From positions 248,001 to 278,906 of the forward strand of contig NW_005201144.1 of the NCBI RefSeq assembly GCF_000372725.1: 30,906 bases of DNA, written 5' to 3'. The number at the start of each line of letters is the position of its first letter. The first letter of the stretch is position 1. The stretch is from Emiliania huxleyi CCMP1516 (taxonomy: Eukaryota). Made by a program: the position numbers and the translations under genes. A model generated the notes under the pieces. That model ran no database searches. It was not told the DNA's origin and saw only the letters and a program-made list of their open reading frames with translations. Positions 10,405 to 29,700 of the stretch are shown here, piece by piece.

Positions 10405-10619
10405 GACGCAAAGCCACAGGTGCGCCCTCGGGCTTGCCCGCCTCCGGCTCGGCGACGGTGCAGCTCTCACGCCTTCTCGACCACGGGATCGAACAACGAG
10501 CATTTTCGACCGAACACCTTGGCCGCAGGGTTCGGACTTTTTGACAAAAATCCCATGCTTTTCTTTCTTTTAGCACTGGCATGAACACAAAAGGCTTTCG
10601 ATCTCACGATTCCCCCCTC

Positions 10620-12045
10620 TCACTGGCCCGGCGCCCAAGCCTCGATCTTCTTGGGCAGCAGCTGGTTCGACAGGTCCTCTCCGTGGCCTAGGCAACCGGT
10701 CTCGCCCTGGCCCCAGGCAAAGACGGCGCCGTCGGCGGTGATGACGATGCTGTGCACATCTCCCGCCGAGACAGCGATGACGCGCTGGCCAGCAAAGGCC
10801 TCGACCTTCTTGGGCAAGCTGGTCCTGCTCGTCGCCGTGGCCCAGCTTGCCAGAGGCTCCCCAGCCCCAGCTCCAGAGGGCGCCGTCGGCGGTGATGGCG
10901 AGGCTGTGCGACCATCCAGCCGCGACAGCGACGATGCGCTGGCCCGCCAACGCCTCGACCTTCTTGGGCAGCAGCTGCTCCTGCTGGTCGCCGTGGCCCA
11001 GCCTGCCATTGCCTCCTGCGCCCCAGCTCCAGACGGCACCGTCGGCGGTGATGGCGAGGCTGTGCGACCATCCAGCCGCGACAGCGAGGACGCGCTTGCC
11101 AGCCATGGCCTCGACCTTTTTTGGCAGCAGCTGGCGCTGCTCGTCGCCATGGTCGCCGTGGCCCAGCTTGCCACCGGCTCCACCGCCCCAGCTCCAGACG
11201 CTGCCGTCGGCGGCGATGGCGAGGCTGTGGTGGTCTGCAGCCGACACAGCGACGACGCGCTGGTGGGCCAAGGCCTCGACCTTCTTGGGCAACAGCTGGT
11301 ACTGCTGGTCGCCGTGGCCCAACCGGCCAGTGTTTCCAAAGCCCCAGCTCCAGACGGCACCGTCGGCGGTGAGGGCGAGGCTGTGGTACTGCCCAGCTGA
11401 CACGGCGACGACGCGCTGGCCAGCCAAGGCCTCGACCTTCTTTGGCTGAAGCTGCTGCTCCTCGTCGCCGTGGCCCAACCTGCCTAAGCCTCCATAGCCC
11501 CAGCTCCAGACGGCACCGTCGGCGGCGAGGGCGAGGTTATGGTTGTCTCCCACCGTCACACTCACGGCGCGCTCGCCGCCCAGCGTCGACGTAAGGCGGG
11601 TCGGCGTGTTGAGCCGCGTCACTTCCTCGCCGTGCCCAAGGAGGCCTGCGAGGTGCTCCGCAGCGCCGCACGACGAGAGCCGCCCTTCGCCGACGATAAA
11701 AAGGCTGTGCTCAGCGCCTGCGGCCGCCCTCGCCGGCGGGTTGGCCTCACACGTCAGCGCCGAATAGCACAGCCATCGCACGGCGCAGCCCTCGCCCTCT
11801 GGCTGCGCCGGCAGCTCGAAGCCGCGCTCTTGCGCCCACAAGCGGATGCCCTCTACCGCAAGCGAGGCGTGAAAGAGCAGCGAGACGGCCGCGACGCGAG
11901 CGATGTCGGCGGGGTCGCAGCGAGAGAGGGCGCGCACGAGGAGCTCCGAGGGGAGGTCGAGGAGGCGGGCGGGCGGCGGCGTGTCTGGCGAGGGGGCGGT
12001 GGCGGGGGCGGCGGCGAGGCGGCGCGAGCGGCGGCGCGGCGCCGT
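10620..12045 (-). pseudogene. F-box + RCC1-repeat protein, frameshifted
   Basis: F-box-like LLDLPSELLVRAL, then repeated AG..HSLA.TADGAVWSWG.G..GRLGHG RCC1 units. A 2-bp deletion near 10815 (cagcttgccc versus cagctgctgccc in other repeats) moves the last repeat into ORF 10620-11360. The apparent start reads ACG-GCG-CCG at 12045. Confidence 0.85.
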
Positions 12046-12145
12046 CTGGTAGACTTTCTTTTTCCCGAAAGCGCGTGTAGAGAGGCGAGGCGCTGCAGTT
12101 TTTTCTTTTCCTAGTGTCGGCCACATACCTAGGTACATCACGCGA

Positions 12146-12987
12146 ATGCTGAAGCTTTTGATCGAAGTCCCCTCCTTCTCCGACGAGGGCGGGCACACGC
12201 GCTACAAGGTGGCCACCGCCGCCGCCACCGAGGGAGCTGCGCCGACCGTCGCCTTTCGCCGCTTCTCCGAGTTTGAGAAGCTGCACGCTGCGCTCGGCAT
12301 CGCGGTGCCTCTCCCGCCAAGCCGCCACCTCACCGCGTCGCCCAACCGCACCGCAACGCCTCGCCACGCAACACCGCCGCGCCGCAAGCGCGACAGACCA
12401 CCGCCTCACCACCTTTGCACGACATCGCCGTCCTCCGCGCAGGTGCCCTTCCCGGTGGCAAAGACGTACGGCATCAAGGGCGCGAGCGACGCGACCAAGC
12501 GGGAGCGGCGGCACAAGCTGCAGGAGTACCTGCGCCAGACCGCCGCAGCCTTCCCTGCCGACAACCCGCCGCAGGCCCTCCTCACCTTTCTGGGCTTCAA
12601 GCAGCCGACTGGAGCCGCACGCCGCGCGTCAACCGGCGGCGCGGCGGCCGCAGCGGCGAGTGAGGAGGAGTGTCCCAGAAGCTGAATGCGTAGTCTTGTA
12701 TTGCAAGTAGCGCTCAAGAGGACACGTGGTCGGCCGTATTCGACCGGACTCCAGCGGAGCTCCCTCTACTCGTACCCCTCGTGTCCACGCGGTGCTCGGA
12801 AGACCTTGCACGCTCTCGCACTCCCGCGCTGACCCCGGCGTGTTCATGACGCAGCAGGAGTGCAACGAGCGGCGCGACTCGGACGGGTACATCCTCAGCG
12901 GCGCCGGCCTCGCTCAGTTCGCCGCTGCGGTGCCGACGGAGCCGCACGAGGCCCTCCGGACGGATTCATTTCCACACACACACACAC

Positions 12988-13028
<41 letters not shown>

Positions 13029-13033
13029 CACAT

Positions 13034-13115
<82 letters not shown>

Positions 13116-13173
13116 GCACACACACACACACACGCACACGCACGCACACACACGCACACACACACACACACAT

Positions 13174-13211
<38 letters not shown>

Positions 13212-14406
13212 CACCCACGCGCACCGGGCCTTGCACTTTCCATGCCTCGGGGCTTCTGGACGTGGGGTCGCGAGGGTCGCCTGGCCCTTGCCCCACCACT
13301 TTGTGTGGAGAAGTGTACCTTACTTACCTTAGGCCCTCCGCGAGGGCATCAAGCAGGGAGATGCCTTTCTGTGCCAGGCCATGAGAGAGCCACACGAGCC
13401 GTAGTAGTAGCAGAGCTAGCAGTGAGAACACGAGCGCCGCGCGTCCCTGTGCCAGGAGCTGCTCGCAAACACGGCGGAGACCCCCCGAGATGTACCCGAG
13501 ATTACCGGAGATTGCCCGGGATTAGGAGCTGCTCGCGAACAAGGCGACCCNNNNNNNNNNNNNNNNNNNNNNNNNNNNNNNNNNNNNNNNNNNNNNNNNN
13601 NNNNNNNNNNNNNNNNNNNNNNNNNNNNNNNNNNNNNNNNNNNNNNNNNNCCCCCCCCCCCCCCCCACCCCCCCACACAGGTCCGCCCTCCCTCCTCCTC
13701 CTCCTTTCCCTTTCTCTCCTCCCCCCCCCCCCCCCCCCTCTCCTCCCCCCCTCCTCCTCTCCCCGCCCCCCCGCCTCCCCCGCCACACGCCCGCCTCGCG
13801 CCCGCAGGCAACCTGCCGCTGCATCTCGCCTGCATCTTCAACCGGTGCGGCATCGCCTCGCCACCACCGCCACCACCATGATTAATACTAGTGGTAACTG
13901 CTTCTTCTTCTTCTATGATTACCTCTTACTCCCCGCATCACCACCCTCTCCTCAGCCACCCTCATGCCCACAGCACGCCCCCCCTCTCCGCCGCCCCTCC
14001 CGTCCCCACCTCCGCCGCCGTCGCTCCCGCCTTCGCTTCCGCCACCGTCGCCACCGCCCCATCTCCGCCACTCACACCGCTTCACCCACGCGCGCCGGGC
14101 CTTGCACGTTGAAGTGGGACTCCCGTCGTCTAGACGTTGAGTCGCGAGGGCTGCCCGGCCCTCGCCCCCACCTCTAGTTGACCTCGCCCTGCCGCCTCTA
14201 CAAGGTGCGACATCGCCCTCGCGCTGATCGACGCGGGTGCGGACCCGGCGCGCGCCAACGGCTCCGGCGAGCTGCTGCCTTCCAAGCTCGCGCCGGCTGT
14301 GAGCGGCGTCTCTTCACACCTCAGGTTGTGAACAGGCGAGCTGCCTTCCAAGCTCGCGCCCGTCTCGCTGCGCATGAAGGTCCCCGCGCTCGTACCGCCG
14401 GCGTGA
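12146..14406 (+). CDS. PX-domain + ankyrin-repeat protein; exons 12146-12304, 12443-~12655/12667, ~12858-12950, 13333-13377, 13526-gap, 13808-13844, 14205-14266, 14336-14406
   Basis: PX motifs (VAFRRFSEFEKLH, PFP.K, ERRHKLQEYL, LLTFL). The downstream exons splice in frame to ...ALREGIKQGDAFLCQ|ELLANKAT...GNLPLHLACIFNR|CDIALALIDAGADPARANGSG|ELPSKLAP...*, which fits the ankyrin consensus. The PX-ankyrin join is less certain: the PX part could stop at 12685. Confidence 0.72.
12959..13330 (+). mobile_element. 5'-truncated retroelement: (CA)n + core + (CTTAC)n tail, forming a whole intron
   Basis: TSD AGGCCCTCCG at 12949-12958 and 13331-13340. Core 13211-13330 is homologous to 26759-26895. Confidence 0.82.
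14082..14180 (+). mobile_element. Older copy of the same retroelement core near the 3' end of intron 13845-14204
   Basis: tcacccacgcgcgccgggccttgcac...tagacgttgagtcgcgagggctgcccggccctcgcccc matches the cores at 13211 and 26759. Confidence 0.78.
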
Positions 14407-21460: not shown

Positions 21461-22804
21461 ATCTCTTACTACGTAGTAAAGGCCCTCGTCGGCTTCGAGA
21501 GTGCGCGCGGAGCGAGTGAGTTTGTGATCGCGCTCACCGCCGCAATGCTGGCCGCGTCGCTGCTCGTCGTCCTCTTCAAGACTATCAGCGCCGTCCGCAT
21601 GCCCACCATCCGCCTCTCCTCCTCCGGCCGCCATCCGGTCCTCGAGCTGTCCCCCGAGTGCCACTTCCACGGCTTCATCTCGCACTGCTGGGGGACCGGC
21701 CAGGACCAGACCCACACCGTCGTGCGGCAGCTCCAGCTTCTTCTCCCCGGCGTCCGGATCTGGCTCGACGTCGACAATCTCGAGGACGTGGGCAGGCTCG
21801 AGGAGTCGGTCAGAGACGCGACGACCTTCCTCGTCTTCCTCAGCGCGGGATACTTCAAGAGCTTCAACTGTCGCCGCGAGCTGTACGCTGCGCTAGGCTC
21901 GAACCGGCCCTTCATCCCGATCCAGGAGGCTGACGTCGACAAGGGCGGCGCCTCGATCGAGGCGCTGAAGGCAGAGTGCCGCGAGCACTGCGTCGAGACC
22001 GCCCCGCCGGCCTACCCCTCCTACAGCGGGCCAGGCGAGATGCTCGCGCGCGTGTTTGAGGCGACGATGCCGATTGTGTGGGTGCGGGTGAACGCTTTTC
22101 AGCTCGAGTCGCTCAAGGCTGTCGCGCTGCGCATGTTGCTGCACTCTCCTTACTACGCGAGCCGCCCGGCCGAGCTCGCTGGAGGAGTGATGGTCCCTCG
22201 CCAGCCGGGGCCCTGTGCCTTCAGCGGCCCCGTCACCATCCTCGTGTGCCGCGACAACGAGGGCGCCGTCGGCATTGCAAGTGACCTCAGGACGGCGGCG
22301 AGGGAGGGGCGCGGTTCTACCGCCAGCGCCGAGGCGGTCGCGATCCGCGATGCGGAGGAGGCGCTCGAGGGAGTCAACGCGGCCCCGCTCTCCGGGCACG
22401 TAGTATTTCTGCTCTACCTGAACGATAAGACCTTCCTGGACGCCGGCGGCGCCGTCGCGCGCCTCGTGCAAGCGGCGATGGACCGGCGCATCGCGATCGC
22501 CATGGTCCACGAGCAGGACCCTAGCTTCGGCGGCGTTCCGTTCCGCAACTTTTTCCAGCAGACGCCGCAGGTGCTGCTGCAGCCGCCGTACAAGCTCTTC
22601 GACACGGTGGCGGTGCCGCTCTACCCGGCTCCGGAGCACCGCACCGTGAGCCGCCGCCTCGTTCTGAGCAGCATGGGAGCGGTGCCGTGCGACGCGGGGC
22701 CGCTCCAGCGGCGGTGGGAGCTCCTCCGCCGCCGCATAGCGGTGGCGCGCCTCGTGCGGCGGCGCCCCGCCGAGCCGCGCCAGCAGCCTGTAGTGCAGCC
22801 GTAG
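21461..22804 (+). CDS. TM + TIR (TIR_2-like) domain protein, C-terminal part; N-terminus missing or disrupted
   Basis: TM helix, then FHGFISHCW..GQD, IWLDVDNL, FLVFLSAGYFKSFNCRRELYAA, and a second degenerate module (FLLYLNDKTF...MVHEQD). No ATG lies before the TM helix starts; in-frame TAG at 21458-21460. Confidence 0.8.
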   Translation: MSYYVVKALVGFESARGASEFVIALTAAMLAASLLVVLFKTISAVRMPTIRLSSSGRHPVLELSPECHFHGFISHCWGTGQDQTHTVVRQLQLLLPGVRIWLDVDNLEDVGRLEESVRDATTFLVFLSAGYFKSFNCRRELYAALGSNRPFIPIQEADVDKGGASIEALKAECREHCVETAPPAYPSYSGPGEMLARVFEATMPIVWVRVNAFQLESLKAVALRMLLHSPYYASRPAELAGGVMVPRQPGPCAFSGPVTILVCRDNEGAVGIASDLRTAAREGRGSTASAEAVAIRDAEEALEGVNAAPLSGHVVFLLYLNDKTFLDAGGAVARLVQAAMDRRIAIAMVHEQDPSFGGVPFRNFFQQTPQVLLQPPYKLFDTVAVPLYPAPEHRTVSRRLVLSSMGAVPCDAGPLQRRWELLRRRIAVARLVRRRPAEPRQQPVVQP

Positions 22805-26159: not shown

Positions 26160-27588
<1,429 letters not shown>

Positions 27589-28524: not shown

Positions 28525-29700
28525 AGGGTATGAAGCGAACCATTTTAGCCCATTTTAGACCCCTGTTAAACCCGAACCAGATTAGTCCTGTTTACGATAA
28601 ACTGGGTTTAAACCTGGTATGCCTAATGCCCCCCCCCCCCCCCCAGCGCGCACCTCCCCCCCGCCCCAGCTCCCCTCTGTGACGAGAGAGACGCGGCTCT
28701 CAGCGGCACGCGCGAGCGTCAGCGTCCGTGCCTCTTCTCGCGCTGGTCGAGGTTGTGCATGGCAATCTTGACCGTCTCGAGGGTCCATGCGGCCGCGTCG
28801 AGGGACTCCTCCGACAGCTTCGCCGTGTCGACGCTCGGACGAGCACGGCCGGCGTGCTATGCCTTCCTGACGATGAGCGGCGGGCGCTGAGCGATGCGCA
28901 AGTGGGGCTGACAGCCACCGCCGTCAAGGTCATCCGCGAGCAGGTGGCGGCGCGCGCCGCGAGGAAGGATGCTCTTGCCGCCGAGAAGCGCACCGCCGGC
29001 ACCACCGACCCCAGCAAGCTGACTGCAGAGCTTTTGCGCGAGGAGCTGAAGCTGCGGCGCGAGCGCGGCGAGACGATCGACGTGCCGCTGCGTTCAAACA
29101 AGCCCGTGCTACTCGCCGCCCTGGTGCGTGCTCGCGCCGCGGCTCCCGACGTGCCGCGACCCGCCGCCGCCCCCGCAGCAGCCGCGGCGGGTGGCGGTGG
29201 CGAGGCTCTCATCGCACCTACGGATGGCGTGGAGAAGCTGGTCGGGCAGCGCGTCGAAGCCGTGTGGGAGGACAAGGATGGGAGCACGGACTGGTTCCCC
29301 GCCACCATCGTCGCCCATTGGCCGACCAATAGCGAGCACGACCGGCTGCTGATGCACTTCGACGACGGCATGGACGAGATCATCACGCTGCCCGACGACA
29401 CCGTGCGCCTGACCGGCGAGGCTGTTGTTGCGCGGTGCAAGTGTGCCCGGTGTGCTGTCCGGCCCGAGGCAGAGGATGGCGGCTGCACGCTGCCGCTTCC
29501 GCAGCCAGCGCGGCCGCGGCGGCGCTAGCCCAGGGGCGCCCTAAACCGGGTCTGAACCTGGTATGTCTATAATAGGGTCCCCCACCCAGGCCGAGCCCTG
29601 TTTAGACCCAGTTTATCGTAAACCGGACTAATCTGGTTCGTGTTCAGCCGTGGTCTAAACTGGGTCTAAACATGGTCTAAACTGGTTCGCTTGATACCCT
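28525..29700. mobile_element. TIR element with ~90-100-bp TIRs containing GGTCTAAAC repeats; a cleaner left TIR copy lies at 27760-27848
   Basis: agggtatgaagcgaaccagtttagacc...ataaactgggtctaaac is the near reverse complement of 29600-29700. No clean TSD was found. Confidence 0.75.
28728..29528 (+). CDS. TIR-element-borne ORF with SAP/HeH-like and Tudor/Agenet-like domains; probably 5'-truncated
   Basis: SKLTAELLREELKLR...NKPVLLAAL is SAP-like. LVGQRVEAVWEDKDGSTDWFPATIV...MHFDDGMDE is Tudor-like. A CKCARC motif follows. There is no ATG at the start. Confidence 0.6.
   Translation: MPLLALVEVVHGNLDRLEGPCGRVEGLLRQLRRVDARTSTAGVLCLPDDERRALSDAQVGLTATAVKVIREQVAARAARKDALAAEKRTAGTTDPSKLTAELLREELKLRRERGETIDVPLRSNKPVLLAALVRARAAAPDVPRPAAAPAAAAAGGGGEALIAPTDGVEKLVGQRVEAVWEDKDGSTDWFPATIVAHWPTNSEHDRLLMHFDDGMDEIITLPDDTVRLTGEAVVARCKCARCAVRPEAEDGGCTLPLPQPARPRRR

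What the first reader, a model, noticed from the sequence alone, without database searches (positions are those of the whole stretch)
12949..13340. An intron that is exactly a non-LTR retroelement insertion, with the TSD supplying both splice sites
Seen: the coding frame ...EPHE|ALREG... is split by 382 bp flanked by the direct repeat AGGCCCTCCG. The left copy gives a GC donor and the right copy gives the AG acceptor, preceded by the pyrimidine-rich (CTTAC)n tail. The insert ((CA)n + core + tail) belongs to the same family as 26333-26892, which has TPRT hallmarks (11-bp TSD, 5' truncation, ORF stop, simple-repeat tail). Known: most described intron-generating elements are DNA transposons. Inference: this LINE-like family makes seamless GC-AG introns when it lands sense-oriented at exonic AG|GC/GT sites.
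Basis: partly seen in the sequence, partly recalled or inferred. Interest (0 to 1): 0.9.

Follow-up and report, generated by a model that had tools for sequence, protein, structure and literature searches.

The report
Retroelement-made intron in coccolithophore gene
A shortened copy of a repeated mobile element sits in an ankyrin-coding stretch of a marine alga's gene between two copies of a 10-base target, and it is likely spliced out cleanly as a new intron, as related copies likely are in other genes; this is a new family of a known way of gaining introns.

Summary
Observation confirmed. A 382-nt GC...AG interval (12951-13332) lies between two perfect copies of a 10-mer in a PX-ankyrin gene of Emiliania huxleyi or a close relative. 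A transcriptome protein reads EPHE-ALREG without a break, and a second DNA haplotype carries the insert's 5' end. The insert belongs to a dispersed family (66 metagenome loci) with variable 5' truncation, 8-13 nt target duplications, a (CCTTA)n tail and a parent ORF of over 800 aa with a SET-like region. No reverse transcriptase was recovered. Older copies end in AG|G far more often than young ones (21 of 37 against 2 of 20). In a DEAH helicase and a BTB gene, removing the copy joins adjacent parts of the domain. Not shown: spliced reads from a strain known to carry the insert, or an empty allele. The mechanism is known (insertion at AG|GT-like sites; non-LTR introners are about 5% of classified families). 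This family was not found in the published E. huxleyi introner lists. Verdict: real, a new member of a known kind, with an unusually clear retro-insertion anatomy.

The parts
12146..12304 (+). Exon 1 of a PX-domain + ankyrin-repeat gene
   Evidence: matches transcriptome protein P0004; Pfam PX and Ank on P0004
12443..12664 (+). Exon 2 (PX domain)
   Evidence: RNA contig of run X14 jumps from exon 1 into this exon (loose end at 12316)
12858..12950 (+). Exon 3, ends ...PTEPHE
   Evidence: tblastn of P0004 residues 127-161, 94%
12949..12958 (+). Left copy of the 10-nt target duplication; holds the exon's last AG and the GC donor
12951..13332 (+). Predicted 382-nt GC-AG intron; retention would shift the frame (382 is not a multiple of 3)
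   Evidence: splicing inferred from P0004
12959..12972 (+). 14-nt head of unknown origin at the 5' junction
   Evidence: best match in 67 loci is 9 nt; covered by the DNA contig of run X1
12973..13209 (+). (CA)n tract, the start of the parent's 3' untranslated region
13210..13314 (+). Family core, older-subfamily type
13315..13330 (+). Short degenerate (CCTTA)n tail; predicted pyrimidine tract and branch region
   Evidence: function inferred
13331..13340 (+). Right copy of the target duplication; acceptor AG and start of exon 4
13333..13377 (+). Exon 4, ALREGIKQGDAFLCQ (first ankyrin repeat)
13845..14204 (+). Another intron of the same gene, with an older copy of the core near its 3' end (14082-14168) and a border repeat matching at 11 of the first 12 positions; here the left copy reads CG|GT, so the acceptor's A is not part of the repeat
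26322..26903 (+). Young copy (1% from the L005 reference): 11-nt duplications at 26322-26332 and 26893-26903, last 90 codons of the parent ORF, (CA)n, core, (CCTTA)n tail; no coding context found

Best explanation
The 382-nt interval is a 5'-truncated copy of a dispersed repeat family lying between two copies of 10 exonic bases; it was likely inserted by target-primed reverse transcription and is likely spliced out without changing the protein. The left copy of the duplication offers AG|GC, usable because GC donors are the majority in this alga. The right copy offers the AG, and the element's pyrimidine-rich (CCTTA)n tail lies directly before it and would serve as pyrimidine tract and branch region. 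Across the family, insertion looks unselective and persistence selective: young copies rarely end at AG|G and older ones mostly do. The likely reason is that copies which can be spliced survive in genes while others are lost. Shown: anatomy, family, truncation series, duplications, age contrast, domain continuity at several loci. Inferred: reverse transcription, splicing of the filled allele, branch-point use, selective retention.
For: P0004 is contiguous across the junction, and the exon model matches it at 173 of 181 residues with no stop. A DNA contig of run X1, which differs at 12754 and 12920, covers 12142-12972, including the head. 66 loci carry the core motif. 5' ends fall at different points of one parent sequence: parent positions 2181 (window copy), 2234 (L019), near the stop (L043), and mostly within or after the CA tract. 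Exact flanking repeats of 8-13 nt occur at L002, L004, L016, L019, L036, L048, L049, L053, L059 and both main window copies. AG|G follows the tail in 21 of 37 older against 2 of 20 young copies, p 6e-4, background 10%. A second rule gives 23 of 26 (L038 set by hand) against 4 of 19. L038 exons map to residues 286-344 and 346-399 of one DEAH helicase chain, with the split codon between. L050 exons map to BTB profile positions 18-44 and 52-93, with 3+3 residues between. GC donors are 56-65% and GA about 4% in E. huxleyi.
Against: No RNA contig reached the junction in the two RNA runs laid, and the strain behind P0004 may lack the insert. No empty allele was seen. No reverse transcriptase or endonuclease was found upstream of the parent ORF. 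All six fully sequenced introns checked in this gene have border repeats of some length, so a repeat alone is weak evidence here. Older copies are also a different subfamily (9 majority differences), so age and target preference are confounded. Of 9 loci with both exons searched, 2 were clearly contiguous, 1 was consistent (L044), 1 hit on one side only (L066) and 5 had no informative hit. The sample is biased to copies with an exact 27-mer and comes mostly from two sample prefixes.
Confidence: 0.7

Rival explanations
1. The intron is older than the element. An intron with its own exon-derived border repeat already existed here, and the element landed in it and replaced most of it.
For: Every intron checked in this gene has a border repeat. 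The family lands inside existing introns near the acceptor (L016, L033, L059) and on what reads as an existing acceptor in a sulfatase-like gene (L001 + L014, read by eye as two halves of one site). A 14-nt head is unassigned.
Against: The repeat is perfect, exonic and within the size range seen at young copies (8-11 nt). The tail abuts the right copy. Coding sequence matching P0004, not an intron, lies directly before the left copy. Only 14 nt are left over for an older intron.
Confidence: 0.13
2. The insertion is real but not spliced well. The allele is damaged, and P0004 comes from an empty allele.
For: No junction read was seen. Intron retention is common in this species (89% of 535 introns showed reads). 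Exonic AG|G[CTA] sites are not rare (5 in 519 nt of these exons).
Against: The copy is old (12% from the older-subfamily majority), yet the flanking exons are intact (173 of 181 residues, no stop). Two haplotypes carry it. The same layout recurs in DEAH helicase, BTB, IleRS and XRN genes.
Confidence: 0.07
3. The intron was made by an insertion, but the family is not a LINE proper. It could be a non-autonomous passenger, a Penelope-like element, or RNA-templated filler captured at staggered breaks.
For: The only parent ORF recovered (813-843 aa, SET-like) has no RT hit and may start at its own ATG. Tandem and repeated 3' ends occur (L004, L014).
Against: One fixed 3' end, a graded 5' truncation series, a simple-repeat tail, variable duplication length and an ORF strand with 69% purines fit non-LTR retrotransposition (established knowledge). 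No terminal inverted repeat of 9 nt or more was found in 12900-13400.
Confidence: 0.1

Closest known systems
Introners classed as non-LTR retrotransposons (Gozashti et al. 2025, PMC12130899; 14 'non-LTR' rows in Dataset sd07, including Pavlovales sp. CCMP2436 fam1 and Strongylocentrotus fam1 'co-opt both')
   Same: A repeat family whose copies form introns at unrelated sites and take splice sites from the target duplication; one example is in a haptophyte.
   Different: Here the copies differ widely in length (predicted introns 143-382 nt) because of 5' truncation and CA expansion, duplications are 8-13 nt, and a (CCTTA)n tail abuts the acceptor. No sequence comparison with the published families was possible.
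Published E. huxleyi CCMP1516 introner families (three in 2025: fam4, fam11, fam24; five in 2022)
   Same: Same species or near; GT and GC donors.
   Different: Listed as Unknown or LTR, with average lengths of 37-70 nt in the 2022 table and similarly short coordinates in 2025.
Transposon insertion at an AGGT protosplice site (Yenerall and Zhou 2012, PMC3443670) and Florenciella introners that co-opt both sites (Gozashti et al. 2022, PMC9860276)
   Same: Duplication of an exonic AG|G site gives donor and acceptor and leaves the protein unchanged.
   Different: The donor is GC, probably GA at L066. The review leaves open why such elements are spliced; here the tail is a candidate answer.

Membership tests
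Introner (intron-generating mobile element) | Similar sequences form whole introns at several unrelated genes | tested here: met
   Focal intron, L038 (DEAH helicase), L050 (BTB), L044 (IleRS); 18 junctions modelled, some with doubtful frames
Introner (intron-generating mobile element) | The insert is spliced out of the mRNA | tested here: inconclusive
   P0004 is contiguous, but its genomic allele is unknown; RNA contigs did not reach the junction
Introner (intron-generating mobile element) | Position is intron-less in other alleles or orthologs | tested here: inconclusive
   One informative DNA run, filled (X1); X11 gave no contig at the site; no ortholog DNA obtained
Non-LTR retrotransposon (LINE) | Fixed 3' end with poly(A) or simple-repeat tail | tested here: met
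   (CCTTA)n tail in young copies
Non-LTR retrotransposon (LINE) | Variable 5' truncation | tested here: met
Non-LTR retrotransposon (LINE) | Target duplications of variable length | tested here: met
   8-13 nt; a loose automatic search did not separate from its control
Non-LTR retrotransposon (LINE) | Reverse transcriptase and endonuclease in the autonomous parent | tested here: inconclusive
   ORF is 5'-open in L005 and the contig could not be extended; only a weak SET match
TIR DNA transposon / MITE introner | Terminal inverted repeats and fixed short duplication | tested here: not met
   No inverted pair of 9 nt or more in 12900-13400; in the second copy the 25 longest of 66 pairs are internal CA/GT pairs; duplication length varies
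tRNA- or other RNA-derived SINE | Pol III head from a structural RNA | tested here: not met
   No Rfam match in 12900-13400; upstream of the CA tract lies a protein ORF

The most novel reading that the evidence does not exclude
A LINE-like family carrying a SET-like domain has been a steady intron factory in coccolithophores: its (CCTTA)n tail is a ready-made branch and pyrimidine tract, any sense insertion at an exonic G|G site can become an intron, and donors born from duplicated exon sequence in a GC-rich genome help explain this lineage's majority of GC and GA donors.
Probability: 0.2. Interest if true: 0.75.

Novelty: new member of a known kind. Interest (0 to 1): 0.5.

Why it matters
Most introner families are DNA transposons (about 82%) and about 5% are non-LTR; by my reading of the 14 listed rows, many rest on thin evidence. 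This family shows the retro-insertion anatomy directly and has both young, mostly non-intronic copies and older intron-like copies. That makes two open questions testable in one genome: whether elements target protosplice sites or are filtered by selection, and why a fresh insert is spliced at all (left open in PMC3443670). Its length variation could also explain why it is absent from published E. huxleyi lists (inference).

Tried and rejected
No whole genome is held, so no genome-wide count was possible. The core motif had 0 hits in viral contigs. Reads: of 4 runs laid on the upstream flank, X1 was informative, X14 showed only the first splice, and X11 and X12 gave no contig of this gene despite holding its words; a hole proves nothing. 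No further runs were laid. Search for the parent's RT: no longer protein; near-length hits were the same ORF; representatives gave fragments and SET proteins; viral contigs none; genome contigs one 959-nt fragment in a bacterial MAG; Atlas SET-domain clusters at score 0.90, a lead only. A loose automatic duplication finder overlapped its mismatched-flank control and was dropped. The one search rule has errors seen by eye: false hits at L022 and L051, and misses at about ten older copies such as L009, L036, L044, L049 and L050. Its left anchor failed for L046, and its frame choice is doubtful for L028, L041, L054 and L055. A test of whether border repeats starting at AGG are general in this genome was inconclusive: 78 against 64 of 516 pairs, control GAG 106. 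Exon pieces of L002, L006, L009, L024 and L036 gave no informative family hit, and neither did the left exon of L066. Antisense insertions were not examined. Literature searches with no hit; two searches listed only general papers, which were not read.

Full report
OBSERVATION. The sequence is as described. A 10-mer occurs at 12949-12958 and 13331-13340 and nowhere else in the window. Cutting two bases into each copy gives a 382-nt interval that starts GC and ends AG. Of 11 equivalent cut points it is the only GC..AG one, and none is GT..AG. Inside lie 8 nt of the left copy, a 14-nt head of unknown origin, a 237-nt CA tract, a core of about 105 nt and a short CCTTA-like tail. The core matches 26758-26889 at 82% and a third place, 14082-14168, at 77%.

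HOST GENE. Exon 2 finds a protein named as Emiliania huxleyi CCMP1516 at 97% and a 244-aa transcriptome protein, P0004, at 93%. P0004 has PX and ankyrin domains and reads PTEPHEALREGIKQ without a break. The exon model of the window agrees with it at 173 of 181 residues, with no stop. An mRNA without the insert therefore exists, but the genomic allele of that strain is unknown. Of 4 runs laid on the upstream flank, a DNA contig of X1, which differs from the window at two listed sites and at its 5' end, covers the flank through the 14-nt head. X14 RNA shows only the first splice; X11 and X12 gave nothing at the site. Two haplotypes thus carry the insert, no empty allele was seen, and no junction read was seen. 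In E. huxleyi 56-65% of donors are GC and about 4% GA, and intron retention is common (PMC4028052, passages).

FAMILY. An exact 27-nt core motif found 66 metagenome loci. I dropped 9 as repeats of another site (L007, L012, L017, L032, L034, L035, L058, L062, L063) and, for each test, copies cut by contig ends. All copies share the 3' core. The 5' ends differ: L005 continues into an 816-aa open ORF, the window's second copy starts 90 codons before its stop, L019 later, L043 near the stop, and most within or after the CA tract. Exact flanking repeats of 8-13 nt appear at 11 sites on a strict rule; five further rows of that output are short or partial matches. There are no terminal inverted repeats and no Rfam match. 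This is the pattern of target-primed reverse transcription (established knowledge). The ORF is multicopy and present in the CCMP1516 annotation, and carries a SET-like region. No RT was recovered in seven searches, so LINE membership stays open.

INTRON MAKING ACROSS THE FAMILY. Copies were split at 4.5% divergence from L005. AG|G follows the tail within 5 nt in 2 of 20 young and 21 of 37 older copies (p 6e-4; background 10%). The rule has errors in both directions, listed under Tried and rejected. A second rule, first AG after the core followed by G within 45 nt, gives 4 of 19 and 23 of 26, with L038 set by hand. For 18 modelled junctions the upstream side shows a matching or near-matching G|GC, G|GT or G|GA, and predicted introns are 143-263 nt (L046 failed; frames were chosen by GC3, four doubtful). 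Independent checks: L038's exons map to adjacent residues 286-344 and 346-399 of DHX8, splitting helicase motif VI (motif name recalled). L050's exons map to adjacent parts of the BTB profile. L044's left exon is IleRS and its right exon the anticodon-binding domain (one search found no PDB hit). L066's right exon is XRN, and its left exon had no hit. Five more pairs gave nothing. In several old copies the two repeat copies differ at one or two sites, as expected once one is exon and one intron.

MECHANISM. Likely steps: (1) reverse transcription starts at the tail, often overlapping the target by a base or two (inferred from tails running into the duplications); (2) it stops early, usually in the CA tract; (3) 8-13 target bases are duplicated; (4) if the target is a sense-strand exon with AG|G, or G|G with the A coming from the tail as at 13845-14204, the left copy is a donor and the right an acceptor; (5) the tail supplies pyrimidines and a branch-like word; (6) such copies persist. 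Steps 2-4 are read from sequence; 1, 5 and 6 are inferred. Targeting cannot be excluded, because older copies are also a distinct subfamily and one young copy with no coding context, L053, has an AG|GC duplication.

AGAINST. All other introns checked in this gene also have border repeats, and PMC3443670 warns that old introns often do (passages). The family also lands in existing introns (L016, L033, L059) and probably on an existing acceptor (L001 + L014), so some AG|G copies are not gains. For the focal intron these readings need all but 14 nt of an older intron to have vanished. Two earlier AI notes on other genomes judged similar single cases as chance (not tested). The difference here is recurrence and the age contrast.

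COMPARISON. Insertion at AGGT making a seamless intron is a textbook model (PMC3443670, passages). Introners that co-opt both sites are described (PMC9860276, passages, section 7 and supplement rows, file cut when stored). Non-LTR introners are about 5% of classified families and include a haptophyte (PMC12130899, passages and supplement rows). PMC11282704 (first of five parts and passages) mentions single retrotransposon-derived introns. The E. huxleyi families listed there are short and classed Unknown or LTR. Core motifs had no hit in the 2025 supplements, and searches returned no paper. The library lacks most subscription papers and Repbase was not available, so absence from print is not established.

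VERDICT. Real. Most likely a retroelement-made GC-AG intron (0.7) from a family that has done this repeatedly. New member of a known kind; interest 0.5, higher if the genome-wide count is large or the tail is shown to act as the branch site.

Noticed in passing
window 12305-12442, 12668-12857, 13378-13525, 13845-14204, 14267-14335: The gene's other introns also start with a near copy of the next exon's first bases (10 of 12, 6 of 12, 11 of 12 for the inner 13456-13525 part, 11 of 12, and over 20 nt), with GT, GA and GC donors. A wider test was inconclusive.
   Followed up: partly
L005 1612-4062 (-): The parent ORF (816 aa, 5'-open; cluster of 72 members) has a SET-like region: weak Pfam hit E 0.076, homologs with significant SET hits, Atlas neighbours named SET. 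A search for non-LTR + SET + Emiliania found no paper.
   Followed up: partly
tails of older copies, e.g. L038, L026, L055: CT[G/A/C]AC words, closer to the usual branch-point consensus (recalled), occur in 12 of 26 older tails and 0 of 19 young tails; this may be drift, subfamily or selection.
   Followed up: partly
L001 1-180 (-) and L014 1-230 (+): By eye, two halves of one young copy inserted exactly at an existing acceptor, with the element's 3' end repeated three times.
   Followed up: partly
L048 352-486 and L049 267-401: Both downstream exons hit Pfam PCIF1_WW (positions 44-87 and, weakly, 120-150): possibly one gene with two introns from this family.
   Followed up: no
window 12767-12804: A second dispersed repeat inside intron 2, hit by many unrelated contigs.
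   Followed up: no
window 26333-26903: The young copy could on paper also be cut out cleanly (GC from the truncated end, AG from the duplication) although no coding frame surrounds it: a caution that such fits arise by chance.
   Followed up: yes
window 10573-12201 (-), 21461-22801 (+), 28683-29525 (+): Neighbouring ORFs: F-box-like + RCC1 repeats, a TIR_2 domain, a Tudor_5-like domain below its cut-off.
   Followed up: no
L067: A 959-nt contig in a Gammaproteobacteria MAG matches the parent ORF at 91%, most likely algal contamination.
   Followed up: no
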